The translations under genes and the position numbers were made by a program. 52,914 nt of DNA from the NCBI GenBank assembly GCA_001789045.1, contig MFYG01000013.1, positions 12,016-64,929 of the forward strand, in the 5' to 3' direction. The notes beneath the pieces were generated by a model. That model did not search any database. It had not been told where the DNA came from and was given only the letters and a program-made list of their open reading frames with translations. Of this stretch, positions 7,684-43,022 are shown piece by piece (within the stretch, counting starts at the first letter, position 1; every line of letters begins with the position of its first letter). The stretch comes from Candidatus Peribacteria bacterium RIFCSPLOWO2_12_FULL_55_15 (GTDB lineage Bacteria; Patescibacteriota; Gracilibacteria; Peribacterales; Peribacteraceae).

Positions 7684-8553
7684 ATGACAATGCGACACGT
7701 CACCATAGGCATTCTTCTCCCTCTCCTCCTCACAGCGTGTGCTGGTGGGAATCCCATTGCCTCGCTCAAAGCAAGCCACGTCCACGGTCTTGCAGTGGAT
7801 CGGAACGATAGTAATCGCGTGTACATCGCCACCCATGAAGGTCTCTTGGCAGTGCAGAACGACACCGACCTACAGCGCGTAGGCGGCAGCCGCGACGATT
7901 TCATGGGTTTCTCTCCCCATCCGACCGATCCAAACACTCTCTTCTCCAGTGGCCACCCAAAAGGTGGAGGAAATATCGGGTTCCAGAAATCGATCAATGC
8001 GGGGAAGACCTGGGAAAAAATCAGCAACGGCAATCCCAGTGGCCCCGCGGACTTCCACGCAATGCTCGTACATCCGTCGAATCCCGATCACATCTACGGC
8101 TGGTACCGTCTCCGCATCCACCGCTCGCTCGACGGCGGAAAAACATGGAAAATTCTCACAAAACAGCCACCAGAAGTGCTGAGTTTCGCTGGTGATTCGC
8201 AGAACGAGAACATTGTCTATATCGGCACCATCGGCAATCTCATCATGAGTACCGATAAAGGGGAATCCTGGACAAGCATGACGGACACCATCGGTTACGA
8301 TGTCGTGTTCGATATTGAGACTGACCAAAACGGCACACTCTACATTGCAACGAGAGACAATGGTATACAGCGCGTCGTCAGAAATCCGAAAGGCGGGTAC
8401 ACGCTCGAGACCATCGGGAAACTTCCGGACGGCGATGTGCCGCAGCATCTCGCGTTCGATCCGAAGAATGCAGAAGTGCTGTACGCATTCGGAAAATCCA
8501 ACACGCTCTACAAGTCTGTAGATAGAGGCAAGAATTGGCAAAAGGTGCTCTGA
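7684..8553 (+). CDS. BNR/Asp-box beta-propeller lipoprotein
   Basis: Lipobox LTAC; repeated SxDxGxTW boxes; HVHGL, ATHEGL, DFMGF, DFHAM. Confidence 0.8.
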   Translation: MTMRHVTIGILLPLLLTACAGGNPIASLKASHVHGLAVDRNDSNRVYIATHEGLLAVQNDTDLQRVGGSRDDFMGFSPHPTDPNTLFSSGHPKGGGNIGFQKSINAGKTWEKISNGNPSGPADFHAMLVHPSNPDHIYGWYRLRIHRSLDGGKTWKILTKQPPEVLSFAGDSQNENIVYIGTIGNLIMSTDKGESWTSMTDTIGYDVVFDIETDQNGTLYIATRDNGIQRVVRNPKGGYTLETIGKLPDGDVPQHLAFDPKNAEVLYAFGKSNTLYKSVDRGKNWQKVL

Positions 8554-29993: not shown

Positions 29994-31511
29994 CTAATCG
30001 ACCTTGGGGAAGAGAATTTCCGGCTCCCCCACCTTCTTCCAGTCTTTACACCCTCCCCACTGCTTCATTGCATCTGTCATAACAAACCCCTTTTCAAGCA
30101 TCTTGTCCGCATATGGCACCCCAAGCTGCACACTGATCTTCTGCGCGGTCCCTGGAATGAAGGGGAGAAGCATGAGAGAGATATGACGGAGCGATTCCGC
30201 AACGCCGCTCAAGAACTGCGCCTTTTTCTCTCCTATAAGCGCCCACGGCTTCCCCTCATCCACCGCCTTATTGAGACCTGCAATCATATGCATCGGAATG
30301 GCAATCGCCTCGGAGCAGGCAAAACGCCGAATCCGTTCAGTAAAGCTATGCCAGGTTTCATTGACATCACCAATCGAAGCAACGAGAGCACAATCATCTT
30401 TCTTTAGGAGAAGCAGAACGCGATTGAGCAAATTTCCAAGCTGATTTCCAAGTTTCGCTTGGTAAATTTCCCCAAACCTCTTCCAACTAAAATCACCATC
30501 ATTCCCCACAGGAATCTCATGCATAAGGTAAAACCGGAGGGCATCGACGCCGTACTTCTCGATCACCTCGACAGGATCCACCACATTCCCAATGCTCTTA
30601 CTCATTTTCTGCCCTTCGTTCGTGATGAACCCATGGATGAGGAGACGATGCGGCGGCGGCACTGAAAGACCAGCATGTTTCAACATCGCCGGCCAGATCA
30701 AGGCATGGAACCGGGCAATATCTTTGCCAATCACATGCGTCACTTCCGCGCCTTCCCACCATTCTTTTTCGTCATGACCTGTGAAGTATCCGAGTCCGGA
30801 GATGTAGTTCGTCAACGCATCGCACCACACGTACATCGTCTGCTCCGGATCACCCGGTACGGGAATGCCCCATGAAAGACTACTGCTCGATCGCGAGAAT
30901 GAAACATCCTCTAAACCCTGATCGATAAGCGATAGCGTCTCATGAGAACGGGCTATTGGAACGACGTGGTAACCATCCTCTCGCATGAGAAGATCTCGAA
31001 GCCACTTCCCTTCCCTCCTAAGTAGGAAAAACCAGTTCTCTTCACACACTTCCTCCGGCACCTTCTGATGATCAGGGCACTTCCCATCGAGAAGATCCTT
31101 CTTCGTCATAAACTTCTCACATCCGCTGCAATAGAGTCCTTTATATGTACGCTTCTCGAGTGCTCCACTCTTCTGCAAGCGCTTCCAAAGCTCCTGCACC
31201 GTCGGCCAGTGCATCGCATGATCCGTCGTCCGGATGAAACGGTCATAACTGATATGCAGCTGGTCATAGTGACCACGAAAAAGCGGCACATTCCGATCAA
31301 CGAGCTTCTGTGGACTGACACCTTCCCTATCAGCAGTCTGCTGAATCTTCACACCATGTTCATCTGTCCCAATCTGGAACCGCACATCGTCGCCACTTAG
31401 CCGCCACCATCGCGCGATGACATCCGCAAGAATCTTCTCCAGCACATGTCCCATGTGTGGAGGAGCGTTCGGATAGTCAATCGCTGTCGTGATATAGCGC
31501 CGCACTGCCAC
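29994..31511 (-). CDS. metG: Methionyl-tRNA synthetase (short form)
   Basis: YPNAPPHMGH, GTDEHG, YVWCDAL, GKDI, KMSKS. Confidence 0.97.
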   Translation of the reverse strand: MAVRRYITTAIDYPNAPPHMGHVLEKILADVIARWWRLSGDDVRFQIGTDEHGVKIQQTADREGVSPQKLVDRNVPLFRGHYDQLHISYDRFIRTTDHAMHWPTVQELWKRLQKSGALEKRTYKGLYCSGCEKFMTKKDLLDGKCPDHQKVPEEVCEENWFFLLRREGKWLRDLLMREDGYHVVPIARSHETLSLIDQGLEDVSFSRSSSSLSWGIPVPGDPEQTMYVWCDALTNYISGLGYFTGHDEKEWWEGAEVTHVIGKDIARFHALIWPAMLKHAGLSVPPPHRLLIHGFITNEGQKMSKSIGNVVDPVEVIEKYGVDALRFYLMHEIPVGNDGDFSWKRFGEIYQAKLGNQLGNLLNRVLLLLKKDDCALVASIGDVNETWHSFTERIRRFACSEAIAIPMHMIAGLNKAVDEGKPWALIGEKKAQFLSGVAESLRHISLMLLPFIPGTAQKISVQLGVPYADKMLEKGFVMTDAMKQWGGCKDWKKVGEPEILFPKVD

Positions 31512-31541
31512 AGCTTACCTGCATACACCATGAGAGGAAGA

Positions 31542-31931
31542 TTAAGAAATTACATTCCCTAATAGATCACGGATTGCATTCATAATAGGCTCAACAGAGA
31601 GCGCAATAAATACTCCAATGAGCGCTATGACGGCCATTTTTTTTGCAGCAGCAACCTTGTCATCCTGTCCTTGCGATACAATTATCCGTATACATGCGTA
31701 GATAAAAACGCACACACCAACCCCTGCGGAAAAGTCGATAATGGAACTCACCACCTTCCCCAGAATATTTGACGATCCATCAGACACGATCATGCCACAC
31801 ATCCAGTCAGGAACCATTCCCCCACCGCAAATATTTCCACGGTATTTTTCCAACTCGCCTGCGACACTAGCGGCAGAGGTGCTGCGCGGAAGGCCGAGAA
31901 ACAAGAGCACTATATGAAACAATGTCCTCAT
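31542..31931 (-). CDS. VirB2/TrbC-like pilin-domain membrane protein
   Basis: Signal peptide, Cys pair, TM-SQG..KVAAAKK-TM; TAATG coupling. Confidence 0.6.
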   Translation of the reverse strand: MRTLFHIVLLFLGLPRSTSAASVAGELEKYRGNICGGGMVPDWMCGMIVSDGSSNILGKVVSSIIDFSAGVGVCVFIYACIRIIVSQGQDDKVAAAKKMAVIALIGVFIALSVEPIMNAIRDLLGNVIS

Positions 31932-32527
31932 TATACACCAAAGACAGTAAGAACAGCACCCACAAGCGTGCGTGCCACATTCACTATCACAGCTCCGGCA
32001 ATCGCCCACATAATCGCCTTCTTTGCACGATCGAACCCTTCAGGTTGTCCATGCCCCATGAGCATTCGAATCCCGGCAAAAATGATCACCGAGAGGAAAA
32101 TGACATTCATCGCATTCACCAGGATTTTCACGGCCCGATGAATAATACTCGCGGCTGTATCATCACCGACAAGTGGAGTCTCGGCAACAATTCCCACAAA
32201 TACTTGTGAGAGAATTGCGCCAAAAAGCCCCATGAGAGCATAGACAATCGCCCACTTCGCCTGAGTGGTTTTGGCATCATCACCCATGCTGATAAGCATG
32301 AGAATCCCACCCCATACAATGAAAAGAACCGAAAGTCCTACAGCCACTTCTAGGAGAAACTTTGCAATTTTCGGAAGGATTTCTACTGTCACTGTATTCG
32401 TATTCTGTGTATCACAGGCGCCAAAAGGTACTCCTTGACATAAACCTGCGCCAGCAATGACTGACATTGGAAAGAACGTAAGAACACAGGCAATCATGAC
32501 GCCGCTAAGAACAGTAAAAAATTTCAT
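31931..32527 (-). CDS. Tandem VirB2/TrbC-like pilin-domain protein
   Basis: Two TM-G...AK.AI..A-TM units. Confidence 0.65.
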   Translation of the reverse strand: MKFFTVLSGVMIACVLTFFPMSVIAGAGLCQGVPFGACDTQNTNTVTVEILPKIAKFLLEVAVGLSVLFIVWGGILMLISMGDDAKTTQAKWAIVYALMGLFGAILSQVFVGIVAETPLVGDDTAASIIHRAVKILVNAMNVIFLSVIIFAGIRMLMGHGQPEGFDRAKKAIMWAIAGAVIVNVARTLVGAVLTVFGV

Positions 32528-32617
32528 ACCACCAAATTATTTGTAGCATACAATGAGAAACAAGACACTGCACATCGTTGCGGAGAATTCTACCACGTCA
32601 TAGGATGCCACATGCAT

Positions 32618-32694
32618 GCGGATGTAGCTCAGTTGGCTAGAGCGTCGCCTTGCCAAGGCGAAGGTCGCGGGTTCGAACCCCGTCATCCGCTCCA
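32618..32694 (+). tRNA. tRNA-Gly(GCC)
   Basis: GCGGATG...CATCCGCTCCA; loop TTGCCAA. Confidence 0.97.
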
Positions 32695-32720
32695 AGATGC
32701 GCATGCGCATCTTGGAGCGG
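32687..32720. repeat. Perfect 34-bp palindrome overlapping the tRNA-Gly(GCC) 3' end
   Basis: CCGCTCCAAGATGCGCA|TGCGCATCTTGGAGCGG. Confidence 0.95.
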
Positions 32721-32851
32721 GCTCGCTACGCTCGCGTGACATTGTTTTGAATGAGAGGGAAACCTGCGGTTTCTCCTCTCAAACACTCCCTTCCCTTACG
32801 TTATAATCCTCCAAGTTGGTTTTCCTAAAGCTCTTTGTCTCCTCATATTCC

Positions 32852-32925
32852 GCGGGATTAGTACAGTGGCAGTACGCTAGCTTCCCAAGCTAGAGATGCG
32901 AGTTCGATTCTCGTATCCCGCTCCA
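32852..32925 (+). tRNA. tRNA-Gly(CCC)
   Basis: GCGGGAT...ATCCCGCTCCA; loop TTCCCAA. Confidence 0.96.
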
Positions 32926-33068
32926 TCTGAAAAAGTACCTCTTTCAGCTCTACTAGAAGCCAAGAGAAAGTTCTAACGTCTGTGATTTCAGTGCACCATT
33001 TCCTCCATAAGTGGCAGAAAGAGGTTGGCTATTGCTGAGTAATTTTTTTACTGTAGATTGCTCCCCCT

Positions 33069-34022
33069 ATGCCAATGCCAAAGTGTTCTTTTGTGGGCAA
33101 TGCTCTGAGTGTAGAAAAACTGGAAGAGACACTGCCCATTATCTGCGATCAAGACACATCTTTTGATGCGCAGAAGTGGACGCAAGAGAATCCACTGTAC
33201 GGACACTGCGGTGTGGTCACTACCATTGCGCACGATCTCCTAGGCGGGAAGATCATTGAAGGATGGTTGAAGGGAAGTACACGGAAGGAGACCATGGATG
33301 CCATCTTTGATGGTAAGGGAGATCCGAAGAAGGAATATCTCCTCCATCTTTGGAATGAACGATCGGATGGCGAGCGGCATGACTTCACACGCAAACAGTT
33401 TGGAGACCACTATCCTGATCTCATCGGTGAACCCGTGACGCGAGAGTATGTCCTTTCCTTTGCACCAACTATTCAGCGGTATCGAACCTTGGCATGGCGC
33501 TTGTTCACACAAAGGTTTCCAACGATGCCACTCTCCAACGATCCCCTCTACGAGCAATGCTTTAGAGAGTCACTTCTCTCAGATTGTGAGAATATGCGAT
33601 TCGGGAGTGTTATTGTCCTCAACGGAGAGATTGTTGCCCGGGGAACAAATATGCGAAACAAACTCCTACAGTGTTGTGATCCAGTCTGCTTCCGCAGAAA
33701 CGTAAAGGTTCCATTCTGGTCTCCCCTTGGATGTGATCATGCAGAGGAGACAGCGCTTTGGAATCTCTTGAACGATGAGAAAGTTCCGAAAGATGCTCAT
33801 AAAGACTGTGACATCTACATTGCGGGGTTCAGTACGGATCATCGTCCATGGATGAAAGAGGAACCTAACCACACTTGTATGCGTTGTTCTCCTCAAATGT
33901 ATCGAGCAAAGGTTCGAAAAATCCTTGTCCCCGTAGAGGGGGATTGGGGAGAAATGACTCCGGAACAAGCGGTACAAACAGCAAAGGAGTATATGAGATT
34001 GGAAGAGCATAATCCGTACTAA
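33069..34022 (+). CDS. YunG-like domain fused to a zinc-dependent (dCMP/cytidine-type) deaminase domain
   Basis: N-terminal ENPLYGHC, HLWN, DFT..QF; C-terminal FGSVIV..GTN, HAEE, CMRC. Confidence 0.7.
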   Translation: MPMPKCSFVGNALSVEKLEETLPIICDQDTSFDAQKWTQENPLYGHCGVVTTIAHDLLGGKIIEGWLKGSTRKETMDAIFDGKGDPKKEYLLHLWNERSDGERHDFTRKQFGDHYPDLIGEPVTREYVLSFAPTIQRYRTLAWRLFTQRFPTMPLSNDPLYEQCFRESLLSDCENMRFGSVIVLNGEIVARGTNMRNKLLQCCDPVCFRRNVKVPFWSPLGCDHAEETALWNLLNDEKVPKDAHKDCDIYIAGFSTDHRPWMKEEPNHTCMRCSPQMYRAKVRKILVPVEGDWGEMTPEQAVQTAKEYMRLEEHNPY

Positions 34023-34036
34023 CTTTCCATGCCCCA

Positions 34037-34096
34037 TCATGCGACCACCATTCCCGAGAGCATCGCGGTTCTAATAGCCTCGAGTTTAGAGCTCCA
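34037..34096 (-). repeat. att-like repeat copy 1 (encodes WSSKLEAIRTAMLSGMVVA*)
   Basis: Matches 37163-37222 and 38678-38737; ends in GCTCCA on the + strand. Confidence 0.92.
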
Positions 34097-34143
34097 AGCT
34101 CAAGAACCAGGAGCGCAGCGACGCAGTTGTTGGCTTGGACAGG

Positions 34144-34344
34144 TTACCATGAGCGAAGCCGAATGGGTATCCCGCTCCAAACAGGAATGACCTTCTCAAG
34201 GACGCTCTTTCTGACCTTATCTAAGCCACATTCCAGCGGTTCTAGCGAACCGATCTTCTTCCGCAGTTCCTCCTTCGCATGGGAGTCGAGGCTTACTGCC
34301 TTGCGGCCTATACCCTCTTCCTCCTGAATTTCATTTGGGAGCAA
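34144..34344 (-). pseudogene. Possible 3' remnant of a tRNA-targeting recombinase
   Basis: ORF ...LEPLECGLDKVRKSVLEKVIPVWSG reads through a 13-bp copy of the tRNA-Gly(CCC) 3' end; family identity is inferred. Confidence 0.35.
34167..34179 (+). repeat. 13-bp copy of the tRNA-Gly(CCC) 3' end
   Basis: GTATCCCGCTCCA identical to 32913-32925. Confidence 0.8.
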
Positions 34345-34549
34345 CTCCGCATTCGATGCGGAATACCTCCGCTGAGAATAAGCAAGAAGTTCCTACGTCT
34401 GAGCCCACTCGCTACCGCGCTCCGTAGAGACGCGATACTCTGGTGAGTTTTCACCTACGCTCATCGCTTCGGTGATCGCAGAGACGAGGTGCGCCGCGAG
34501 ACGGAACCGTAATCCCGGATACAAGAGCGAGGCACGAATGCAGTGTATC

Positions 34550-34584
34550 AAAAAGAACCCCCGCGAAAAATGTCGCGGAGGTTC
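34550..34584 (-). terminator. Hairpin plus U-tract downstream of the DGR target gene
   Basis: Minus strand GAACCTCCGCGA-loop-TCGCGGGGGTTC followed by TTTTT. Confidence 0.7.
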
Positions 34585-34623
34585 AAGGCGTCAAGAAGGC
34601 GGAAGCCCTCAAGACTTCAAGGC

Positions 34624-35298
34624 TCAGGACTTCCGAGGGGCGGCGGCGAGACCGAGGCTCGGGCCGCACCCGCCATCCCAGCAGTAGGCGACGACGACGC
34701 CATCGCCATCGAAGTAACCGACGCAGACGCGGACGCCGTCCGAGCCCTTGTCGATGCAGCGCACGTAACAGTCCGACAAGAGACGCTTGCCAGTTGCCAG
34801 TGCATTGATGACGAGGAACGTGGCGACGCTGCGCGTGGAGGGCACTTCTTCCTCAGGAAGGAGGAGCTTCTCCTGATCCGGGAAGGTCTTGTTGAAGGAA
34901 CCTTCCACGGGGATGCGGAGATTCCGCTCCTGAGGGGCGTCCTCGCGCTTGGCCCAGTCGTACGGCTCATACCAGTCCTGGCGGTAGACGAGCTTCTTCT
35001 GGCGAACGAGCGAGAGGTCGCGCAGCGTGACGAGCGAGATGCAGGGATCGAAGAACCGGTATACCCCGTTCTCGCACTGCACACCCTTCTCCACGGCGGC
35101 CTGGAGCGCCTGCATGGCAACCAGGAGGGGGTCCTCTTTCACCATCTCCATCACGCGGCGGAAGAGGCCCTCGTCGTGAGCGAGTGCGGCATAGAAGTCG
35201 CTGCCCGCACCGACCTTGCGGCCCGTCACGATCATCTCGTGGACGAGGCCGAGGTCCTTGCCGAAGTCGCTCTGACGCACGATGTCTTTGGACATCAC
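34624..35298 (-). CDS. Putative DGR target (variable) protein with C-terminal VR
   Basis: C-terminus VRCIDKGSDGVRVCVGYFDGDGVVVAYCWDGGCGPSLGLAAAPRKS resembles CLec-type DGR variable regions; NNC/NNT-rich; adjacent to a DGR-type RT. Confidence 0.7.
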   Translation of the reverse strand: MMSKDIVRQSDFGKDLGLVHEMIVTGRKVGAGSDFYAALAHDEGLFRRVMEMVKEDPLLVAMQALQAAVEKGVQCENGVYRFFDPCISLVTLRDLSLVRQKKLVYRQDWYEPYDWAKREDAPQERNLRIPVEGSFNKTFPDQEKLLLPEEEVPSTRSVATFLVINALATGKRLLSDCYVRCIDKGSDGVRVCVGYFDGDGVVVAYCWDGGCGPSLGLAAAPRKS

Positions 35299-35445
35299 AC
35301 ACCAACCTTTCTGGAAAAACAGAGACCCAAATCGTCGGGGACGGCGTTGCCTCGGAACGAGACAAGCGCCCTAGGCACGTTCAATGCGAAGAGAGCTTGT
35401 CTCATACATGAATCTTGACGATGCTCTGAAAGAACACCATGATAT

Positions 35446-35474
35446 AATTTATCACCAAAGGATGTTTCTGTCAA
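35446..35474 (-). promoter_or_regulatory. Putative promoter for the DGR target gene
   Basis: Minus strand TTGACA-N17-TAAATT. Confidence 0.5.
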
Positions 35475-35523
35475 TGGTGCAAACGCGGCAAAAACCACTC
35501 AGGCACACGGGTAAAATGCAACA

Positions 35524-36357
35524 ATGCAGGTACACCGACACCTCTTCGAGCGCATCATTTCCAAGGAAAACCTTTTCACTGCGTGGGAGGAGTTCCGCAA
35601 AGGGAAGCAGGGACGGAAGGATGTGCAGGAGTTCGAGCGAAAGCTGGAACAGAATCTTTTTCGTCTGCACCGGGGGCTTGTGGCTGGAACCTACAGGCAT
35701 CAGCCGTACAGCGCCTTCATTATCTGCGATCCCAAGCAGCGGCGCATCCACAAAGCTACAGTCCGGGACCGTATCCTCCACCACGCGGTATTCACCGTGC
35801 TCAACCCCATTTTCGAGCCGGCGTTCATTGCCCATTCCTTCTCCTGCCGGAAAGGCAAAGGGACACACAAAGCAGTGGACGCCTTGGATCGGATGCTCAG
35901 GAGCGTGAGCCGCAACGGGACGCGGCCCTGCTTTGGCCTCAAATGTGACATCCATCAGTTCTTCGCGTCCGTCGATCACGACATCCTGCTCGGAATCCTC
36001 GAAAAACGCTTGAAGGACGAGAAAACAATCGCGCTCCTCCTTCCTATCCGCTCATTCCTCAAGGAGCATCTGCATCTCGATCTCCACCCGCACAAAGTGA
36101 CACTCCGAAAATACCGCCAGGGTATCGACTTCCTCGGCTATGTGCTTCTGCCGCATCACCGTGTTCTTCGCACGAAAGCGAGGCGCAGGATAGTGCGCAA
36201 GCTGGGCGAGCGCATCACGGCGCACAAGGCGGGATTGCTCACTGAGGAAAGTGTCGAGCAATCATTGCAGTCGTACCTCGGCGTCCTCTCTCACGCGAAC
36301 TGCTACCGACTGAGCCAGGACTTTCAGAACCAATGCTGGTTCCTGCTCCAAGAGTAG
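35524..36357 (+). pseudogene. DGR-type reverse transcriptase with an in-frame deletion of the catalytic core
   Basis: ENLFTAW, DPKQRRI, RDRILHHA, SFSCRKGKGTH, KCDIHQFF, GIDFLGY, SYLGVLSHAN present; G.PIG..TSQ and YxDD absent. Confidence 0.85.
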
Positions 36358-36517
36358 TTCTTTTTTATGGCGTCCGAAAACTCAGCAAAGTCCGGTTGAG
36401 TTCGGTCTTGCCACGAGTGCCGCTGAGAGTTGCCGATCCAGTTTTTCCTCTGTACATGAGCAAAAGGGCGATAGTGGCAGGAGTGGCGAGAAATCTGGGA
36501 TATTTGCAAAAGAGCCT

Positions 36518-36545
36518 TTGACCAGGATCAGTGTGTTGCTATAAT
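36518..36545 (+). promoter_or_regulatory. Strong promoter pointing antisense into the NYN gene 3' end
   Basis: TTGACC-N16-TATAAT with TGn extension. Confidence 0.65.
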
Positions 36546-36550
36546 AGGAG

Positions 36551-36593
36551 CAATCACGCCCGATGGGATTTCGGTCCCGTCGGGATATTTTTT
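36551..36593 (+). ncRNA. Candidate ~45-nt small RNA (UUCG hairpin plus U-tract) antisense to the NYN gene end
   Basis: CCCGATGGGAT-TTCG-GTCCCGTCGGG then ATATTTTTT immediately after the promoter. Confidence 0.4.
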
Positions 36594-37145
36594 GTCTCGA
36601 TGAAGGGGCGCAGACGTTCGAGTGAACAGAGGAAGATCGCCCGCTTGCGCTGTTCATCCTCGATGTACTCCCGCCCAAGTCCTCCTTTGGGAAAGACCAA
36701 GATGGCTTGTTTGCGGCGCTCGCGGAGCGCATCGAAGATCGGAGCATAGTCGCCGTCGCCGCTCACGAGGATGAAGCCTTGGTACGTATCCAAGGCTGAG
36801 CAAAATCTCTTTCGCGATCTCAACATCGAAATCGCACTTGCGCCGCAAGATAGGTTTGAGAAGGGGCTTGCCCTCGTGATCCACGGTCACCGGCACCTTC
36901 TTCACGGCCTTCGTGACGATGCGGTAGCCGACAGCAGCTTGTGCTGTGAGGAATGATGCCGATTTCTCATGCTGATCCGTTCCGTGGAAGAGGACGATGT
37001 CCTGCACCTCCTGATGATCCTTGAAGAGGGTGAAGAGTCTGCGGGTATCGACGTTCCACCCGTTCTTGCGCTGCGCGTGGAATACGTTTGCCCAGTCGAT
37101 GAGGACGAGGGTCTTGCCTTTAAGTGTGAAGAACGGAGTCGCCAT
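36554..37145 (-). pseudogene. NYN/LabA (DUF88, PIN-like) nuclease, frameshifted near 36790
   Basis: IDWANV and KCDFDVEIA in one frame; SGDGDYAP in the adjacent frame. Confidence 0.85.
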
Positions 37146-37162
37146 GTGCGCGGCATCGTACA

Positions 37163-37222
37163 TCATTCGAGTGCCACCCCGGAACACATGGCGATTCTAA
37201 TAGCGTCGAGTTTAGAGCTCCA
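37163..37222 (-). repeat. att-like repeat copy 2 (encodes WSSKLDAIRIAMCSGVALE*)
   Basis: Matches copies 1 and 3. Confidence 0.92.
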
Positions 37223-37585
37223 CGAAGTAGAGAACCGAAGGCCATGAAGGGCATTTTCGCTGCGCTCATTCGGCTCACGCTTCGTGGCGCAGCCATGGTT
37301 CTCTGCCGCGCGCCCTGTAGCGTGGCGCGCGCCGTGTACCGTGCGAAGCTCTGATACTGGCGGAAGCCTCTGCTACTGGGGAGTGCCCTGTAGCGTCCTG
37401 TAGCGTCCTGTAGTCACCAAAGGTGTACTACTGGGGCAGTTTTGAATGAAAGAATGGCTTGTAGCTATGTACTTCGTTCTCTATATTTCCCTACTCGTTC
37501 TTTCACATCATTTTTCCCCCCACCCACTTCCCTTCCTCGTTGGAGGGGAAATGCCGTGGGGGAAAATATTGGAAAGGAGAGCATC

Positions 37586-38122
37586 ATGAAAACGTGGATA
37601 GGAATTGGAACAATCCTCCTTAGCTGCACACTAGGAGGAACTCTACAGTCAGAGACCATCACCGCTGGCATCGAAATCGTACAGAAAGTCCTTCCGGACG
37701 ACGAAATCGACACCACAATGAACATCAAGGTCACTGCCCGGGAGCACTTGAATTGGGTGACGTTCCGATACTGCCGTCACCCGAAGGATGAGAAGCGCGG
37801 AACCATCACTGTTAGTATTGGCTGCAGTGGTGCAGGACTTTCAAGCCTCGTGCTCTATCAACCAAAATCGCTCACGATCAATGGTATCATTGTGCTCCCG
37901 AGCAAGGTTGCAAAGGACAGAAAGAGCTTCGAGGAAGAGGAAAGTTCCGTGACGCGCTACCGGTATTCTTTGAAAGAGGGAAAACCACTCGAGCCAATAG
38001 AAGAACGGCTCGAGGGAAAGATTATCCGCACAAAGGGCGGACCATTCATCTTTCACCAGGATGGGCCGCATCGGCGCGTCTGGGAGTGCATCCCACTCCA
38101 CAAAGAGACAGATTCTCCGTAA
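37586..38122 (+). CDS. Hypothetical secreted protein
   Basis: AAGGAG SD before ATG; signal-peptide-like N-terminus. Confidence 0.65.
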   Translation: MKTWIGIGTILLSCTLGGTLQSETITAGIEIVQKVLPDDEIDTTMNIKVTAREHLNWVTFRYCRHPKDEKRGTITVSIGCSGAGLSSLVLYQPKSLTINGIIVLPSKVAKDRKSFEEEESSVTRYRYSLKEGKPLEPIEERLEGKIIRTKGGPFIFHQDGPHRRVWECIPLHKETDSP

Positions 38123-38196
38123 AACCAAACCACACCCACCACGGCATGGGGCATGGCTTCGCGGCCATGCCCTTCTTTAGCATTGACACAAACTCC

Positions 38197-38622
38197 TCAT
38201 GCCACCGCCTCTTCCAGTCGTGTGATCCGATGTTCGTGGTTTTCAATCTTTGGTGTCAGTCGTTTGTCGATATTCCCAAGAATAGCCAGAATTTGATCAT
38301 CTGTTTCATAGAGTCTCGCGAATTTATCATCGAATTTCTTCTCGATCCTTTGAACATCGGTCCCTAACTTCTGGACGGCAACGTCCAGTCTCTGCACCGT
38401 ACCATCCAGCTTCTGAAACTTTTCCTCTAGCCCCTGAAACCTGTCCTCCAGTCTCTGCACCGTACCATCCAGCTTCTGAAACTTTTCCTCTAGCCCCTGA
38501 AACCTGTCCTCCAGTCTCTGCACCGTACCATCCAGCCTTTGAAAACTGCCCTCCAGCTTTTGTATACTATTCTTTACCTTCCCAATATCCGCTTTCGTGG
38601 CTGGTGCTGTGTCATCGGACAT
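38197..38622 (-). CDS. Coiled-coil protein with 21-aa tandem repeats
   Basis: ATKADI...HEHRITRLE; internal 63-bp duplication. Confidence 0.7.
   Translation of the reverse strand: MSDDTAPATKADIGKVKNSIQKLEGSFQRLDGTVQRLEDRFQGLEEKFQKLDGTVQRLEDRFQGLEEKFQKLDGTVQRLDVAVQKLGTDVQRIEKKFDDKFARLYETDDQILAILGNIDKRLTPKIENHEHRITRLEEAVA
38384..38536. repeat. 63-bp tandem repeat (2.4 copies)
   Basis: Exact units at 38384-38446 and 38447-38509, partial unit 38510-38536. Confidence 0.92.
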
Positions 38623-38677
38623 GACCGCATGGTAGTTTTTCATTGCTTCTGATGCAAGCAGCTGCATCAGTTCAGCC

Positions 38678-38737
38678 TCATGCGATGGTTACTCTCGAAA
38701 GCATCGCGGTTCTAATAGCGTCGAGTTTAGAGCTCCA
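38678..38737 (-). repeat. att-like repeat copy 3 (encodes WSSKLDAIRTAMLSRVTIA*)
   Basis: Matches copies 1 and 2. Confidence 0.92.
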
Positions 38738-39012
38738 GATAGTACACGTCGCTGCGCTCCGTGACAACATGGCACAGCCACTTATCAAGACCAATCATTG
38801 TGCGACGTGGACGCCGGTTCCAATCTCCCACAACTCCGGCAATGCGCGAAAGAACGACGGCGGGCTGGGCAACGCGGGGTGCGGGGCGCGGGCATGTTCG
38901 GGAAACAACGGAGGCATCGCTTCGGTCACGGCGAGGAAACCGTAGGAGACGCGGACGTTGACTTTCCATTGACATACAGGGAACATCTTATCATAAACGT
39001 TACCATCGCCCC

Positions 39013-39712
39013 ATGAGCCCCCTCTCACCAGCCGATCGCGCCTTCATCGAACGGAAAGCGGACGACCTCGTAGAAAACATCCAGAAGGAACTCGAAAACC
39101 TCCTGCAATACCATTGCTCCGACCACGCGGTGGCGGCCGAAAGCGGTGCAGGGATTCCTCGATGATCTCCCCCGCCACAGAGACCGCATCATCAACGCGT
39201 TCGTCGGATGGAAGACGCTCAATATTTCCGCGGACATCCTCCGGAAATCCGCAGACGATGCGAAGCTCCTCCGCGAGGGGAAAGACCCACGCAGTCACGA
39301 AAGCCTTACGGACGAAGACCGCCGGAGAAAAGAGGAAATGAAAAACCTTGATGAAGATCTCCGGAACGAGGGCGAGGCGGACGATCAGGAAGTGGCGGGA
39401 AGCGCGCAAACCGACGCCGCGCGCGACCGGAGCATTACGGAAAGAGACATCGCCCGAAACGCCTACGACGAGTCCTTTGTATACCAAGATGCTTTCGACC
39501 GCATTCCGACTGGAGCGGAATGCTTCCGAAAAGCGACGCGACTCCTCTTCCACGGCATTATCCGCGGATGCATCGAAAAGGGCGCCCGCCTGCGCCCCCT
39601 CGAAGAACTCGCCATTGTAACACGGAAGCAAATCGATGCGCTGATCGGAAACATGTACTCCCTGATCAGCGAACTCCGGATTCCGGATGAGCAGAAGGAT
39701 GAAGACCTGTAA
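39013..39712 (+). pseudogene. Hypothetical helical protein, apparently frameshifted near 39100
   Basis: MSPLSPADRAFIERKADD... from ATG 39013 appears to continue in the +1 frame (...VQGFLDDLPRH to stop 39712). Confidence 0.5.
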
Positions 39713-39723
39713 GCTCATGATGC

Positions 39724-39798
39724 GCCCTCGTAGGTCAATGGATAGACCGGCGGCCTCCGAAGCCACAGATACAGGTTCGATTCCTGTCGGGGGCACCA
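39724..39798 (+). tRNA. tRNA-Arg(CCG)
   Basis: GCCCTCG...CGGGGGCACCA; loop CTCCGAA. Confidence 0.93.
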
Positions 39799-39804
39799 CA
39801 TCTT

Positions 39805-39838
39805 CCCTCTCCCCAAGGGAGAGGGCTAGGGTGAGGGG
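39805..39838. repeat. REP-like element (CCCTCTCCC..GGGAGAGGG family)
   Basis: Related copies at 15797-15830, 19589-19623, 41061-41086 and ~43620-43646. Confidence 0.75.
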
Positions 39839-40599
39839 TTGAGCCTAAAGAACCCCATCGCATTCGCGGTCGTCACACGATCAACCTCCTCCAAAGAAAG
39901 CCCTTTCGTCTCCGCCACAACCTTCGCCACTTCGATAACGTACGCCGGCTCATTCCGCTTCCCGCGATGGGGAACGGGGGGCAAATACGGCGCATCAGTC
40001 TCCACCATGATCTGCCCGAGAGGACACATCTGGATGGTGCGTCGGACCTCTTCAGCGTTGGGATAGGTGGCAATGCCCGTAAACGAGAGAAGATATCCGC
40101 AGTCGACAAACCGCCGCACATTCTCCCACCGCTCGGTACAGCAGTGGATCACGAGCTTCTCCGGTCGTACGGAATCGACGATCGACCACACATCTTCGAC
40201 CGCTTGGCGGCAGTGCACCACCACCGGCATCTGCAATTCCTTCGCTAGTTCCAGTTGCTCCTGAAATACGCGCCGCTGCACATCGCGTGGCGAGAAATCG
40301 TAGTGATAGTCGAGCCCGATCTCGCCGATTGCAACGACCTTGGACATTCGCGCGAGAGAACGCAGGCGCTCCCGATCCCAGTCTTTCCATTCCTTCGCAT
40401 GATGGGGATGAACTCCGATTGAACAAATAATCTGTTCATATTTTTCAGTAATTGCAACGCATTTTCCACTCTCTTCCAATGAATCAGCAATCGTCACTAT
40501 CCGCACAACACCCGCGGCAACCGCACGCCGAATGACAGCGTCGAGATCATCCGCAAACCGTTCGTCCGTGAGATGGCAGTGGGAATCGATCACCGCCAT
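39826..40599 (-). CDS. tatD: TatD-family DNase
   Basis: IDSHCH, GVHPH, GEIGLDY, VHCR, ETDAPYL, NEP. Confidence 0.95.
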   Translation of the reverse strand: MAVIDSHCHLTDERFADDLDAVIRRAVAAGVVRIVTIADSLEESGKCVAITEKYEQIICSIGVHPHHAKEWKDWDRERLRSLARMSKVVAIGEIGLDYHYDFSPRDVQRRVFQEQLELAKELQMPVVVHCRQAVEDVWSIVDSVRPEKLVIHCCTERWENVRRFVDCGYLLSFTGIATYPNAEEVRRTIQMCPLGQIMVETDAPYLPPVPHRGKRNEPAYVIEVAKVVAETKGLSLEEVDRVTTANAMGFFRLNPSP

Positions 40600-40647
40600 A
40601 GCATACCCATAGCAGAGCCGGGAATGATGACGTAAGATTTGGAAAGC

Positions 40648-40723
40648 GGGTCGGTAGCTCAGTTGGTAGAGCAGTGGCCTTTTAAGCCATTGGTCGTGGG
40701 TTCAATCCCCACCCGACCCACCA
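40648..40723 (+). tRNA. tRNA-Lys(TTT)
   Basis: GGGTCGG...CCGACCCACCA; loop CTTTTAA. Confidence 0.96.
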
Positions 40724-40758
40724 ATACACAAGGAGCGGGTCTACGGTATGGTAGAGGA

Positions 40759-41958
40759 GTGAAAGTCGCTCTCGTCCATGAACTCCTGACGCAAAAAGGC
40801 GGCGCGGAGCGGGTCCTCCGGGTCCTCGCAGCGATGTATCCCGATGCCCCGATCTACACCCTCCTTTATGACGAGAAAAAACTGGGCGACTGGTTCCCAC
40901 GAACACGGATCCGCACGAGCGCGCTGCAAAAATTCGCACGGTTTTCCTCAAATCATCATTATTATTTGTCCTGGTTTCCGAATGCAGTGGAAGCGTGGAA
41001 TTTTGATCCATGCTCATCCCATCACCCTCCTCCTTCGCTAAAGCTACGGCGGACAGGTAACCCTCTCCCCTTCGAAGGGGAGAGGGAGGAGTGTTTCGAC
41101 CTCGTCATCTCCTCCTCCTCCGCCTTCGCCCATGGAATCATCACCAATGGAAAGCCAAAACACCTCTGCTACGTCCACTCCCCTGCCAGGTACCTGTGGG
41201 ACCGGACACACGACGTTCTTACGCAAAGTTCCAAGGGGCTCTTAGGACCACTCAAACGATGGTACCTGTCTCACCTCTTTCATACGTTGCGCATTTGGGA
41301 TGCGGAATCCGCCGACCGCCCCGACGCGCTCCTCGCCGCATCGAAAACAGTCCAGCGCCGCATCGAACTCTACTGGCGTCGTGAGAGCGCCGTCATCTAT
41401 CCCCCCATCGATGACCACTGGTTCTCCGTCAGTCATAGGTCCCATGTCCTAGGTCCTAGATCCTATTTTCTCATCGTCTCCACCCTCGCCCCCTACAAAC
41501 GCATCGACATCGCAATCGAAGCGTATAATCATCTTCGACTCCCCCTCACGATCACAGGAAGCGGCCCTGATCGGAAACGTCTGGAACGCCTGGCCGGCCC
41601 AACCGTTACATTCCTCGGCTACGTCCCGGAAGAGAATCTCCCTGATCTCTACCGAGGAGCCATCGCGACCATCTGCCCCGGCGACGAAGACTTCGGCCTC
41701 GTGCCACTCGAATCCATGGCCTGCGGCACCCCCGTGATTGCCTTCCGCAGTGGGGGGGCTCTCGAAACGATCCAAGAAAACATCACAGGGCAATTTTTCA
41801 ACGAGCCTACAGCACCGTCTCTCGCTGAGGCCATCCAGTATTTCGATAGAAGCCATTTTTCCGAAGACACTTGCCGCGCTCACGCGCAAAAATTCTCCCG
41901 GGAAGCATTTGAAAAAGACATCCGATCCGCTGTAGCAAAATTGCTTATCGTCTCCTGA
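40759..41958 (+). CDS. GT4-family glycosyltransferase
   Basis: VALVHE...GGAERV, CYVHSPARYLW, EDFGLVPLESMACG; GTG start after the tRNA. Confidence 0.9.
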   Translation: MKVALVHELLTQKGGAERVLRVLAAMYPDAPIYTLLYDEKKLGDWFPRTRIRTSALQKFARFSSNHHYYLSWFPNAVEAWNFDPCSSHHPPPSLKLRRTGNPLPFEGEREECFDLVISSSSAFAHGIITNGKPKHLCYVHSPARYLWDRTHDVLTQSSKGLLGPLKRWYLSHLFHTLRIWDAESADRPDALLAASKTVQRRIELYWRRESAVIYPPIDDHWFSVSHRSHVLGPRSYFLIVSTLAPYKRIDIAIEAYNHLRLPLTITGSGPDRKRLERLAGPTVTFLGYVPEENLPDLYRGAIATICPGDEDFGLVPLESMACGTPVIAFRSGGALETIQENITGQFFNEPTAPSLAEAIQYFDRSHFSEDTCRAHAQKFSREAFEKDIRSAVAKLLIVS

Positions 41959-41984
41959 TCGAATACGTAAGTTTTTCTCTACTA

Positions 41985-43022
41985 CTAGAGTAACGCTGAT
42001 TGGACGGGTACTGGCAAAGAAATGCCAACCTTCTGATACGCTTTTGGGGTTGCAATGCGTCCCTTCGGAGTCCGTTGCAGGTAGCCCTGCTGCAAAAGGT
42101 AGGGCTCATAGACTTCTTCTAGGGTATCTTCCTCCTCCGCAAGAATGGCAGCAAGGGTGGAGAGTCCCACGGGCCCACCGGCAAAACTCTCGACAATCGT
42201 CCGCAGCACGCGGTGATCCGTCGCATCCAATCCATCACGATCGATCTCGAGACACCGGAGCGTCTCTCGAACAATAGAATGATCCACCGGAGAAACACCT
42301 CGCACCTCGGCAAAATCACGCACAGCACGGATGAGACGATTCCCCACACGCGGCGTTGCGCGACTCGCCTCAGCCAGAAGACGCGCAGCCCCCGCTCCCA
42401 ACGGAACATTGAGAATCCCCGACGCCCGCTCAACAATAGATTCCATCTCCCCTGCCGAATAAAACCCTAATTTGAACACATGGAGGAAACGATCTCGGAG
42501 CGGCGCACTGATCGATCCGACTTTGGTCGTCGCCCCGATGAACGAGAACGGTTGTAACTGGAGTCGCACGGAACGCGCGGTTGGCCCCTTTCCAATGATA
42601 ATATCGAGCACACCGTCTTCCATGGCGCCGTAGAGAATCTCCTCGAGAGGCGGACGGAGACGATGCACCTCATCAATGAAGAGAATATCTCCGACCTGGA
42701 GGTTCGTGAGAAGAGAGGCAATGTCTCCCGGCTTCTCAAGAGCAGGTCCGCTCGTGACCCTGATCTGTGCCGCCATCTCGCGGGCAATGACATGCGCCAA
42801 CGTCGTCTTTCCAAGACCCGGAGGCCCGTGGAGCAACGTGTGGCCGAGTGGCTCCTTGCGCTTGCGAGCAGCGGCCATATGGATTTGGAGATGTTCTTTA
42901 ATCTTTTCCTGACCAACGTACTCCTGCAAATATTGCGGACGGAGCGTCTGCTCCACAGCATCAACCGCTTGCGGGGCAGGATCGCTCATAGTCTGCTCCC
43001 GTCGACGACGTTGGAGAACCAT
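41985..43022 (-). CDS. ruvB: Holliday junction helicase RuvB
   Basis: LRP..L.EYVGQ, GPPGLGKTT, FIDEVHRL, PLRDRF, EPYL, RTPKGR; start approximate. Confidence 0.96.
   Translation of the reverse strand: MVLQRRRREQTMSDPAPQAVDAVEQTLRPQYLQEYVGQEKIKEHLQIHMAAARKRKEPLGHTLLHGPPGLGKTTLAHVIAREMAAQIRVTSGPALEKPGDIASLLTNLQVGDILFIDEVHRLRPPLEEILYGAMEDGVLDIIIGKGPTARSVRLQLQPFSFIGATTKVGSISAPLRDRFLHVFKLGFYSAGEMESIVERASGILNVPLGAGAARLLAEASRATPRVGNRLIRAVRDFAEVRGVSPVDHSIVRETLRCLEIDRDGLDATDHRVLRTIVESFAGGPVGLSTLAAILAEEEDTLEEVYEPYLLQQGYLQRTPKGRIATPKAYQKVGISLPVPVQSALL

What the first reader, a model, noticed from the sequence alone, without database searches (positions are those of the whole stretch)
32926..38737. Integron-like tandem cassette array at tRNA-Gly, delimited by tRNA-end-mimicking repeats that encode a conserved protein tail
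Seen: three 60-bp repeats (34037-34096, 37163-37222, 38678-38737), with 1-3 differences over their last 36 bp, all ending in GCTCCA exactly like the upstream tRNA-Gly. On the minus strand each reads from TGG (the complement of CCA) as 19 codons plus TGA: WSSKLEAIRTAMLSGMVVA*, WSSKLDAIRIAMCSGVALE*, WSSKLDAIRTAMLSRVTIA*. The substitutions are mostly synonymous or conservative, which suggests selection as protein. The repeats split the region into units of 1171, 3126 and 1515 bp with unrelated cargo and no integrase. Established: some integrases carry attP within their own 3' end, so integration swaps their C-terminus. Inference: these are att junctions holding the severed tail of a tRNA-Gly-targeting recombinase. 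The units would then be integrase-less cassettes inserted one after another at the tRNA 3' end, either mobilised in trans or decayed after insertion. This would be a tRNA-anchored gene-capture array, and it is the best candidate for a new system in this window.
Basis: partly seen in the sequence, partly recalled or inferred. Interest (0 to 1): 0.88.

Follow-up and report, generated by a model that had tools for sequence, protein, structure and literature searches.

The report
Serine-recombinase tail scars at tRNA-Gly
The three repeats are the severed last 19 codons of a large serine recombinase gene, left behind each time a mobile element inserted at the CCA end of a tRNA-Gly gene in an uncultured groundwater bacterium.

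Summary
There are three ~60-nt direct repeats (R), all ending in GCTCCA, downstream of tRNA-Gly(CCC). A fourth copy lies 1.4 kb downstream of tRNA-Gly(TCC) on another contig.

A 548-aa metagenomic protein with Resolvase, Recombinase and Zn-ribbon domains ends ...VLEKVIPVWSAKLDAIRTAMCSGMALA. The window keeps 35 codons of this gene (34180-34284, minus strand), reading into a 13-bp copy of the tRNA-Gly 3' end.

LSR homologues occur in 134 of 200 genomes of the same Peribacteria family. In 25 of the 30 best loci the ORF enters an antisense tRNA exactly at a conserved Trp codon (TGG, the complement of CCA). R is therefore the P arm of attP, left as an attR scar.

The array is an accretion hotspot. 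Related contigs carry the same units in different order and number. The units now lack a recombinase, and whether they move in trans or are decay products is unresolved. It fails the integron tests: no IntI, no attC hairpin.

I rate it a new variant of a known kind, interest about 0.6.

The parts
32618..32694 (+). tRNA-Gly(GCC). Its last 6 nt begin a perfect 30-bp palindrome (32689-32718).
   Evidence: ARAGORN; Rfam; flank read
32852..32925 (+). tRNA-Gly(CCC). It is the anchor of the array, and its encoded CCA (32923-32925) is the junction.
   Evidence: junction comparison
32926..34096 (+). Unit 1 (1171 bp), holding a YunG + dCMP/cytidine-deaminase-domain gene (33069-34022, +) and repeat R1. 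A contig of a co-occurring relative lacks this unit precisely.
   Evidence: Pfam. In Logan contigs of run X8, 32925 is joined to 34132 with a 36-nt variant of the spacer start between them.
34037..34096 (-). R1: the last 19 codons plus stop of an LSR gene (P arm of attP, an attR-type scar)
   Evidence: tblastn of P0002 aa 530-548
34097..34179 (+). T-spacer: an 83-nt spacer ending in a 13-bp copy of the tRNA-Gly(CCC) 3' end (34167-34179). It supplies the B-side of an attL-like junction.
   Evidence: The same spacer type occurs in G001 and L028, and directly after tRNA-Gly(CCC) in G194.
34180..34284 (-). Remnant of the LSR gene (matches P0002 aa 495-529; P' arm). It reads ...KVIPV then W-S-G-I-P into the tRNA-end copy.
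   Evidence: tblastn hit aa 495-532 at window 34171-34284, 89% identity over 38 aa; translation
34624..35298 (-). 224-aa ORF with no family match. Homologues lie next to attR-type junctions in L029 and G077.
   Evidence: no family
35524..36357 (+). Group-II-intron-like reverse transcriptase gene with an internal deletion of about 206-212 bp (cargo, probably dead)
   Evidence: RVT_1 matched only at profile positions 9-94 of 205. Full-length copies in G004 and L028 have the extra segment. Classification.
36654..37166 (-). NYN-domain gene (cargo). It starts next to R2.
   Evidence: Pfam NYN; conserved NYN+R module in G025, G004, L017, L028, L029
37163..37222 (-). R2: LSR tail scar
37223..37420 (+). 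F element: a structured trailer that normally follows tRNA-Gly genes. It has the inverted repeat CCACGAAG (37220-37227) / CTTCGTGG (37280-37287) and the motif GAGTGCCCTGTAG (37381-37393). R2|F is therefore an attR-type junction (P|B').
   Evidence: Homology with the trailer of tRNA-Gly(TCC) on C17 starts exactly at GCTCCA. F-like trailers follow tRNA-Gly in other genera.
37586..38122 (+). ORF that looks like a signal-peptide/lipoprotein gene (my reading, no family match). It has a paralogue on C17.
38197..38667 (-). Coiled-coil protein gene with 21-nt tandem repeats (38363-38572). It has a paralogue on C17 and an orthologue in L029 unit 1.
38678..38737 (-). R3: LSR tail scar, followed by a degenerate F-like sequence
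39724..39798 (+). tRNA-Arg(CCG). The conserved far flank of the hotspot, preceded by the conserved gene at 39013-39712.

Best explanation
The 60-nt repeats (R) are the 3' end of a large serine recombinase (LSR) gene: a Trp codon, 18 more codons and the stop.

This LSR family has its attP inside its own coding sequence. The crossover lies at or next to a conserved Trp codon, TGG. On the other strand TGG is the genomically encoded CCA end of a tRNA gene.

Integration at tRNA-Gly therefore produces two junctions. One is attL, the tRNA followed by the body of the LSR gene, which now reads into antisense tRNA and ends ...VWSG*. The other is attR, the severed tail R followed by the former tRNA trailer F.

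The window is a hotspot where several such events piled up at tRNA-Gly(CCC), with the newest nearest the tRNA (inferred). The LSR genes have since been lost, except for a 35-codon remnant. Units have also been shuffled, probably by recombination among the repeated R and F sequences.

Shown: what R is, the family-wide TGG/CCA geometry, the remnant, and unit-level differences between related contigs. Inferred: the order of events, the exact crossover position, and how the LSR genes were lost.
For: 1. A recombinase carries the tail. In the near-identical metagenome contig L029, the frame upstream of an R copy reads VAVSVLESLECGLDQIKKSVLEKVIPV|WSAKLEAIRIAMLAGMALA*. Searching this 46-mer among longer proteins gave 1 hit from 37 candidates: P0002, 548 aa, 80% identity, ending ...KVIPVWSAKLDAIRTAMCSGMALA. 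P0002 has Resolvase, Recombinase and Zn_ribbon_recom domains.

2. The window holds a remnant. P0002 aa 495-532 match window 34171-34284 at 89% identity. Its tail matches R1 and R2.

3. The tRNA geometry is family-wide. With P0002 as query, 134 of 200 genomes of the same family have a match. In 25 of the 30 best loci a tRNA lies antisense at the LSR 3' end, and the ORF enters it exactly at TGG = CCA. The tRNAs are Gly, Thr, Arg, Cys, Asn, Leu and Glu. Of the 5 loci without a tRNA, 3 are cut by contig ends.

4. R is tied to tRNA-Gly. Of 20 R copies in 15 loci, 12 copies in 8 loci lie downstream of a tRNA-Gly (CCC, TCC or GCC) in the same orientation. The other 8 sit on pieces with less than 5.2 kb held upstream. 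None lies by another tRNA.

5. Junctions are precise. The window's R2|CGAAG... and C17's tRNA-Gly(TCC)|CGAAG... become homologous exactly at GCTCCA.

6. Related contigs differ by whole units. L029 (83-96% identity over the aligned blocks) has another order and number of units. One Logan contig joins the tRNA directly to the T-spacer, without unit 1.

7. Candidate complete elements exist in relatives: about 9.2 kb in G005 and 6.65 kb in G077. Each has the LSR at the tRNA-Gly end and a tail-like ORF at the far end, matching the pattern W-x-x-[KL]-L-[DE]-x-[IVL]-x-T.

8. The own genome has a second LSR subfamily with the same geometry at 6 more tRNAs.
Against: No intact LSR of this subfamily is in the assembly, which is 96% complete. 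The closest intact own LSRs are 27-32% identical to P0002.

The free-form tail attached to an intact LSR was seen in only 1 of the 4 proteins returned by the C-terminal search. Its contig could not be fetched, so it may be an internal R|LSR junction of a tandem array rather than a free circle.

Most units have no P' remnant at their left end. Simple decay does not readily explain such clean junctions.

In G025 a 134-bp F copy (133 of 134 identical) follows both the tRNA and the first R. One canonical attP x attB event does not produce that.

No significant dyad symmetry was found around the junctions (10-11 of 22 matches; null mean 10.2, 95th percentile 12).

No circle junction appeared in the contigs laid.

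The G005 candidate attR lies inside the 3' end of a cargo ORF.
Confidence: 0.78

Rival explanations
1. The recombinase-less units, each running from an F-type left end through cargo to R, are true non-autonomous cassettes. An LSR encoded elsewhere would excise them as circles and re-insert them at the CCA of tRNA-Gly genes or of other R copies. That would be a serine-recombinase counterpart of an integron or of trans-mobilised SCC/CIME elements.
For: The same LSR-less unit type (F, ORF, coiled-coil gene, R) sits behind tRNA-Gly(TCC) on C17 and behind R2 in the window, with both ends precise.

In G025 two different units both begin with the same 134-bp F, 133 of 134 identical.

R copies (20) far outnumber intact LSRs of the subfamily seen (P0002 and G004's copy).

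Unit 1 is present or absent with exact boundaries.
Against: F bears no likeness to the LSR's own P' arm. F-like trailers also follow tRNA-Gly in other genera without any R in the 1.5 kb held (6-7 of about 11 true tRNA-Gly hits), so F looks like the native attB side.

Canonical LSRs recombine only attP with attB (recalled; abstract of PMC3783163 seen in the listing).

No cognate LSR is in the assembly and no circle junctions were seen. Homologous recombination between F or R copies gives the same products.
Confidence: 0.25
2. The array is a pure fossil with no site-specific activity for a long time. The present variation between related contigs would come only from homologous recombination among the 60-nt R and the roughly 100-134-nt F repeats, plus ordinary deletions.
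For: The LSR is reduced to 35 codons and the RT has an internal deletion.

Some breakpoints between L029 and the window are not at R, for example window 38813 joined to 34498 and the precise loss of 35483-36394.

Degenerate R copies have lost the stop or gained an early one, in L021, L024 and L026.
Against: The 99% identical F duplication in G025 and the 92-95% identical R copies between genomes point to recent events.

Intact LSRs with the same geometry are common in the family.

Variable sites in the first 12 codons of R fall mostly at codon position 3 (counts 3, 3 and 9; p = 0.03). That fits copies drawn from functional genes rather than long neutral decay in place.
Confidence: 0.3
3. R is an independent functional element: a portable promoter or 5' leader, or a small upstream ORF for the gene that starts next to it. 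It would not be a recombination scar.
For: The NYN, coiled-coil and zeta-like P-loop genes each start within about 0-30 nt of R and read away from it. In two copies the TGA of the R frame overlaps an ATG.
Against: R1 has no such gene behind it; it abuts the 3' end of the deaminase gene. The upstream frame has no conserved start. The sequence is contiguous with an LSR ORF in P0002 and L029. These roles are not exclusive, but they cannot explain the link to tRNA-Gly.
Confidence: 0.05

Closest known systems
Phage and ICE large serine recombinases (phiC31, Bxb1, A118, TP901-1 type)
   Same: The three-domain architecture is the same: Resolvase, Recombinase and Zn-ribbon. The att sites are short and share almost no identity with each other. 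The element carries its recombinase at one end.
   Different: Here attP lies inside the recombinase's own last 19 codons, and the target is the CCA end of tRNA genes. Known LSRs are described as using protein-coding or intergenic sites (recalled). [quoted passage not shown] Activity is untested here.
SCCmec / pseudo-SCC composite islands and CIME accretion-mobilisation (recalled; only the listing entry of PMC6222049 was seen)
   Same: Units lie in tandem at the 3' end of a conserved gene and are separated by direct repeats. Many units lack a recombinase. The recombinases involved are LSRs.
   Different: In SCC the direct repeat is the 3' end of the target gene (rlmH). Here it is the 3' end of the recombinase gene. 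Trans-mobilisation is shown for SCC and CIME but not here.
SSV-type archaeal integrases with attP inside the int gene (PMC8371274; listing entry seen, the rest recalled)
   Same: attP lies within the integrase ORF. Integration into a tRNA gene splits or alters the enzyme's coding sequence.
   Different: Those are tyrosine recombinases with long (about 40-nt) identical cores, and the gene is split in two. Here a serine recombinase loses only an 18-residue tail.
Integration-dependent immunity of mycobacteriophages (PMC8092301, passages read)
   Same: attP lies inside a gene's 3' end at a tRNA, so integration swaps the C-terminus. In those phages the free form carries a C-terminal degradation tag.
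   Different: There the gene is the repressor and the integrase is a tyrosine type. Whether the LSR tail here is a degron or a directionality switch is untested.
Integrons
   Same: The array has units with one conserved end, and unit content differs between related contigs.
   Different: There is no IntI, no attI or Pc, and no attC hairpin. Gene orientations are mixed.

Membership tests
Large serine recombinase integrative element (att scars) | The protein bearing the tail has Resolvase, Recombinase and Zn-ribbon domains | tested here: met
   P0002 scores 58.7 bits for PF00239, 26.5 for PF07508 and 24.7 for PF13408; the last is just under its 25.3 cut-off
Large serine recombinase integrative element (att scars) | The repeat is contiguous with the recombinase ORF in an unsplit (attP-type) arrangement | tested here: met
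   P0002 C-terminus; L029 R2|LSR remnant
Large serine recombinase integrative element (att scars) | Integrated copies show attL (target|P') and attR (P|target flank) | tested here: met
   Window T-spacer|LSR remnant and R2|F; 25 of 30 family loci have tRNA|LSR junctions. The attR sites in G005 and G077 are candidates only.
Large serine recombinase integrative element (att scars) | A recombinase gene is present in the element | tested here: not met
   Only aa 495-532 remain in the window. No cognate LSR is in the assembly.
Large serine recombinase integrative element (att scars) | Imperfect dyad symmetry of the att sites around a central dinucleotide | tested here: inconclusive
   Best 10-11 of 22 matches; null mean 10.2, 95th percentile 12
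Large serine recombinase integrative element (att scars) | Catalysis of attP x attB recombination | not testable with these tools
   Needs a recombination assay
Integron | An IntI-type tyrosine recombinase next to the array | tested here: not met
   One PF00589 match in the genome, on contig C21
Integron | attC sites that fold as imperfect hairpins in single-stranded DNA | tested here: not met
   Fold z-scores of 0.63, 0.90, -1.46 and -1.52 for 4 R copies, with no common hairpin
Integron | Cassettes co-oriented behind a common promoter | tested here: not met
   Cargo genes lie on both strands
Integron | Cassette-level gain and loss between relatives | tested here: met
   L029 compared with the window; Logan contig without unit 1
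SCC-like composite island / accretion of non-autonomous units | Tandem units separated by direct repeats at the 3' end of a conserved gene, with many units lacking the recombinase | tested here: met
SCC-like composite island / accretion of non-autonomous units | The direct repeat derives from the target gene's 3' end | tested here: not met
   R derives from the recombinase gene. Only GCTCCA is shared with the tRNA.
SCC-like composite island / accretion of non-autonomous units | Mobilisation of recombinase-less units in trans | not testable with these tools
   No circle junctions in the contigs laid. Needs raw long reads or an experiment.

The most novel reading that the evidence does not exclude
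Peribacteria may carry a serine-recombinase counterpart of the integron. A family of LSRs would be anchored on the encoded CCA end of tRNA genes through a conserved Trp codon. They would insert their own elements and also move recombinase-less units (F-type left end, cargo, R) between tRNA-Gly sites in trans, building gene-capture arrays. In addition, the swap of the 18-residue tail on integration would act as a built-in sensor of the integrated versus free state, controlling stability or direction.
Probability: 0.22. Interest if true: 0.82.

Novelty: new variant of a known kind. Interest (0 to 1): 0.62.

Why it matters
tRNA genes are the classic targets of tyrosine integrases. Large serine recombinases are the workhorses of genome engineering and are known for other kinds of site.

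This family is widespread in one CPR lineage: 134 of 200 genomes have a homologue of the query LSR. It places attP inside its own last codons and lines up a conserved Trp codon with the CCA end of at least 7 tRNA identities. That gives three things:
- a simple rule for predicting attP and attB pairs from sequence alone;
- a natural case in which integration rewrites the enzyme's C-terminus;
- evidence that tRNA ends are heavily used insertion points in a tiny 0.9-Mb genome, where at least 8 of 45 tRNA genes carry an LSR gene, a remnant or an R-bearing array.

For the finding itself, a puzzling 'coding' repeat now has a concrete and testable origin.

Tried and rejected
R as a tRNA fragment or known RNA family. 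Rfam at permissive threshold found only the four tRNAs in 31000-42000. R has no T-arm or acceptor geometry, by inspection.

R as an attC-like hairpin. Rejected.

Tyrosine integrase. There is only one PF00589 match in the genome, on C21. The remnant does not match it.

A DGR or Avd reading of 34180-34620 and of the 224-aa ORF. This was my own recalled lead. Pfam, NCBIfam and PADLOC gave nothing. The RT scores as group-II-intron-like or generic (PDLC01136 at 191 bits; TIGR04416 at 176 bits against a cut-off of 300). I dropped the lead.

A tRNA-primed retro-insertion idea, with UGGAGC acting as a primer-binding site. I considered it because of the RT. It became unnecessary once the LSR was found, and the RT is absent from most units.

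Dyad symmetry of the att sites. Not above the null.

Viral contigs. No relative of P0002 was found.

Literature. I ran six searches. I read passages of PMC8092301 and PMC6813254, and otherwise saw only listings. I found no description of LSRs with attP in their own 3' end at the tRNA CCA. This is not proof that none exists. Supplements were not consulted.

Sequencing runs. No RNA holder was listed. In the four runs laid (Logan contigs only) no circle junction was seen. Three of the four runs (X1, X5, X8) cover the whole stretch. X1 and X5 may be the source sample, so they are not independent.

Full report
**Observation.** The window holds tRNA-Gly(GCC) at 32618-32694 and tRNA-Gly(CCC) at 32852-32925, both on the + strand. 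Downstream lie three direct repeats of about 60 nt at 34037-34096, 37163-37222 and 38678-38737, with spacing 3126 and 1515. All three end GCTCCA, as the tRNA does. In none of the copies is the frame part of a long ORF: the open frame upstream runs 1 to 50 codons with no conserved start. The assembly has 24 contigs, 0.896 Mb and about 54% G+C. It contains only one more copy, at C17:1569-1629. That copy lies 1.37 kb downstream of tRNA-Gly(TCC), in the same orientation.

**The junction is the tRNA's GCTCCA.** The unit on C17 is a paralogue (77-91% identity) of the window's third unit. The homology begins exactly at GCTCCA. On C17 that hexamer is the tRNA's 3' end, and in the window it is the end of repeat R2. 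The repeat end and the tRNA end are therefore interchangeable left borders of the same unit.

**Distribution.**
- A 67-nt query found the repeat in 4 of 60 relatives, all in the same family.
- Exact-pattern scans returned 7 genome contigs and 7 metagenome contigs. The record titles name Candidatus Peribacteria/Peregrinibacteria MAGs.
- Counting every copy in the 15 loci I oriented gives 20 copies, 18 of them distinct.
- Twelve copies in 8 loci lie downstream of a tRNA-Gly in the same orientation. All three isoacceptors (CCC, TCC, GCC) are used.
- The other 8 copies, in 7 loci, sit on pieces with less than 5.2 kb held upstream.
- No copy lies beside another kind of tRNA.
- L023, L025 and L027 carry an identical copy and may be one population. 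One 168-nt piece (L020) was not analysed.

**What the repeat is.** L029 is a 4.8-kb metagenome contig that matches the window at 83-96% identity over the aligned blocks. In it the frame upstream of the second repeat reads VAVSVLESLECGLDQIKKSVLEKVIPV, followed by the tail. The window has the homologous ...LECGLDKVRKSVLEKVIPV at 34180-34344 on the minus strand. There it runs into WSGIP..., which is the antisense of a 13-bp copy of the tRNA-Gly(CCC) 3' end at 34167-34179.

I searched the L029 46-mer among longer proteins. This gave one hit out of 37 candidates: P0002, 548 aa, 80% identical over 96% of the query. It ends ...AKEELRKKIGSLEPLECGLDQVKKSVLEKVIPVWSAKLDAIRTAMCSGMALA. P0002 has the Resolvase, Recombinase and zinc-ribbon domains of a large serine recombinase. 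tblastn of P0002 against the own genome places aa 495-532 at window 34171-34284 (89% identity) and places the tail on R1 and R2. The repeats are therefore the last 19 codons and stop of an LSR gene. The window still holds 35 codons of the gene body, joined to a tRNA-end copy in an attL-type junction.

A codon-position count on the 18 distinct copies agrees with a coding origin. In codons 1-12 the variable columns number 3, 3 and 9 at positions 1, 2 and 3 (p = 0.03). This is a weak test on its own.

**The family rule.**
- With P0002 as query, 134 of 200 genomes of the same family have a match at E <= 1e-5.
- In 25 of the 30 best loci a tRNA gene lies antisense at the 3' end of the LSR, and the ORF enters it exactly at a Trp codon, TGG, the complement of the tRNA's CCA.
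- The tRNAs are Gly (GCC, TCC, CCC), Thr (TGT, CGT, GGT), Arg (TCT), Cys, Asn, Leu (GAG) and Glu (TTC).
- Of the five loci without a tRNA, three are cut by contig ends (L035, L043, L056).
- The fourth, L049, keeps a tail of its own, WLPLLDGLRTTW....
- The fifth, G004's copy, is 88% identical to P0002 and is joined after the Trp codon to a non-tRNA sequence.
- Integrated Gly-type genes end ...VWSG*. Integration therefore replaces the 18-residue tail by whatever the antisense tRNA encodes.
- All 45 tRNA genes of the own genome encode CCA.
- Two relatives have candidate complete elements, about 9.2 kb in G005 and 6.65 kb in G077. Each has the LSR at the tRNA-Gly end and, at the far end, a GCTCCA whose antisense reads WSGKLDDVLTAAERLRHIE* or WSGLLESITTVMRPARSLCP*.
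- These two, the P0002 tail and the L049 tail all share W-x-x-[KL]-L-[DE]-x-[IVL]-x-T.
- The G005 site lies inside the 3' end of a cargo ORF, so I treat both as candidates only.

**Anatomy of the array.** In tRNA orientation the order is as follows.
1. tRNA-Gly(CCC).
2. Unit 1: a YunG + deaminase-domain gene, then R1.
3. An 83-nt T-spacer ending in the 13-bp tRNA-end copy.
4. The LSR remnant, a 224-aa ORF of unknown family, a reverse transcriptase gene, an NYN gene, then R2.
5. The F trailer, an ORF that looks like a lipoprotein gene (no family match), a coiled-coil gene, then R3.
6. A degenerate F-like sequence, then the conserved flank gene and tRNA-Arg.

The sequence after R2 (F) is the structured trailer that directly follows tRNA-Gly genes elsewhere. 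It has the inverted repeat CCACGAAG...CTTCGTGG and a GAGTGYCCYGTAG motif about 70-160 nt further on. CCGCTCCA|CGAAG occurs in 42 of 200 family genomes. Of the 31 matches I read, about 11 are true tRNA-Gly ends, and 6-7 of those show the F architecture without any R in the 1.5 kb held. R|F is thus what an attR (P arm plus former tRNA trailer) should look like.

The T-spacer follows tRNA-Gly(CCC) directly in G194, where a partial LSR is joined to it. One Logan contig of run X8 joins window 32925 to 34132 through a 36-nt variant of the spacer start. That is the same locus without unit 1 (depth about 10, shorter side 28 letters, from a related strain).

These junctions fit serial insertion at the tRNA's CCA, with older material pushed outward. 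This ordering is an inference.

**Variation between related contigs.**
- L029 has the coiled-coil unit first and a unit of the 224-aa ORF plus NYN second, with no RT.
- After its second repeat L029 has the LSR remnant and a second copy of the 224-aa ORF.
- Some L029 breakpoints are not at repeats.
- G025 has a lipoprotein-like + zeta-like unit and an NYN unit. G013 has a zeta-like unit. G004 and L028 have a full-length RT plus NYN.
- In G025 a 134-bp F copy, 133 of 134 identical, follows both the tRNA and the first repeat.

This last point, together with the clean left ends that lack any P' remnant, is not what a single canonical attP x attB event followed by random decay predicts. It keeps two rivals open: trans-mobilised units, and shuffling by homologous recombination among R and F copies.

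**What does not fit, or was not shown.**
- No cognate LSR is in the 96%-complete assembly.
- The tail joined to an intact LSR was seen in 1 of the 4 proteins returned by a C-terminal search. The others are G004's copy and two Thr-type integrated forms.
- No dyad symmetry above the null was found.
- No circle junctions appeared in the contigs laid.
- No relative was found in viral contigs.
- Activity, crossover position and the function of the tail are untested.

**Comparison with known systems.** By domain content the enzyme is an LSR. The array fails the integron tests: no IntI, no attC-like fold, and mixed gene orientation. In layout it works most like tandem accretion at a conserved gene's 3' end, as in SCC and pseudo-SCC islands (recalled). 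The difference is that here the separating repeat comes from the recombinase gene, not from the target. An attP inside the integrase ORF is known for SSV-type tyrosine integrases (listing only). A C-terminus swap on integration at tRNA genes is known for repressors of some mycobacteriophages (PMC8092301, passages read). [quoted passage not shown] In six literature searches I found no account of serine recombinases with this TGG/CCA arrangement.

**Verdict.** The integron comparison and the 'new system' claim are not supported as stated. The wider result is a lineage-wide family of tRNA-CCA-anchored serine recombinases whose attP lies in their own tail, which I rate a new variant of a known kind and worth an experimental test.

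Noticed in passing
G000 contigs C1:15050, C2:3427, C2:24583, C8:35565, C11:10198, C13:502 (outside the window): A second LSR subfamily, ending ...GWRVL...R[NT]W, reads into six further tRNAs at TGG = CCA. Two genes are intact, at tRNA-Glu(CTC) and tRNA-Val(CAC). Four are remnants of 48-167 codons, at tRNA-Ala(TGC), Glu(TTC), Ala(CGC) and Ile(GAT). With the two tRNA-Gly sites, at least 8 of 45 tRNA genes are occupied.
   Followed up: partly
L063 (G004:C5) 103-123 and 6126-6146: The LSR closest to P0002 (88% identity) is not at a tRNA. Right after its Trp codon comes one arm of a 21-nt inverted repeat (95% complementary), and the other arm lies 6 kb upstream. This may be an invertible segment or a secondary site.
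   Followed up: partly
window 35524-36357: The reverse transcriptase gene lacks about 206-212 bp that are present in G004 and L028, including the catalytic part. The full-length form scores as group-II-intron-like or generic RT and sits next to an NYN gene. The RT+NYN pairing was not explained.
   Followed up: partly
window 32689-32718: The last 6 nt of tRNA-Gly(GCC) begin a perfect 30-bp palindrome, GCTCCAAGATGC GCATGC GCATCTTGGAGC. An inverted copy of the att core therefore sits right after this tRNA. The F trailer has a similar inverted repeat that includes CCA.
   Followed up: no
window 37223-37420; also L012, L066, L072, L077, L086, L090: F is a conserved structured trailer of about 90-134 nt after tRNA-Gly genes in several genera. 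It has the inverted repeat CCACGAAGT...ACTTCGTGG and the motif GTACTGAGTGCCGTGTAG. Its function is unknown.
   Followed up: partly
window 38363-38572: The coiled-coil gene holds eight 21-nt (7-residue) tandem units. The region aligns with gaps against the C17 paralogue and L029, so copy number seems to vary.
   Followed up: no
window 38795-39028 (minus strand) and 34624-34760: The stretch after R3 has an open frame reading RGGSW...NVRVSYGFLAV. The 224-aa ORF ends in a Gly/Asp/Tyr-rich stretch that differs strongly between its copies. By recall only, both look like variable regions of diversity-generating retroelements. A 26-nt similarity links the two places (family D8). This was not tested.
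   Followed up: no
L060 (G005:C11) 2498-5050, 6763-7050, 7073-7996: The candidate 9.2-kb LSR element at tRNA-Gly(GCC) in G005 carries a PriCT_1 primase-like gene, a 95-aa ORF that looks like a DNA-binding protein by eye, and a tyrosine recombinase gene. This suggests a plasmid-like integrative element.
   Followed up: partly
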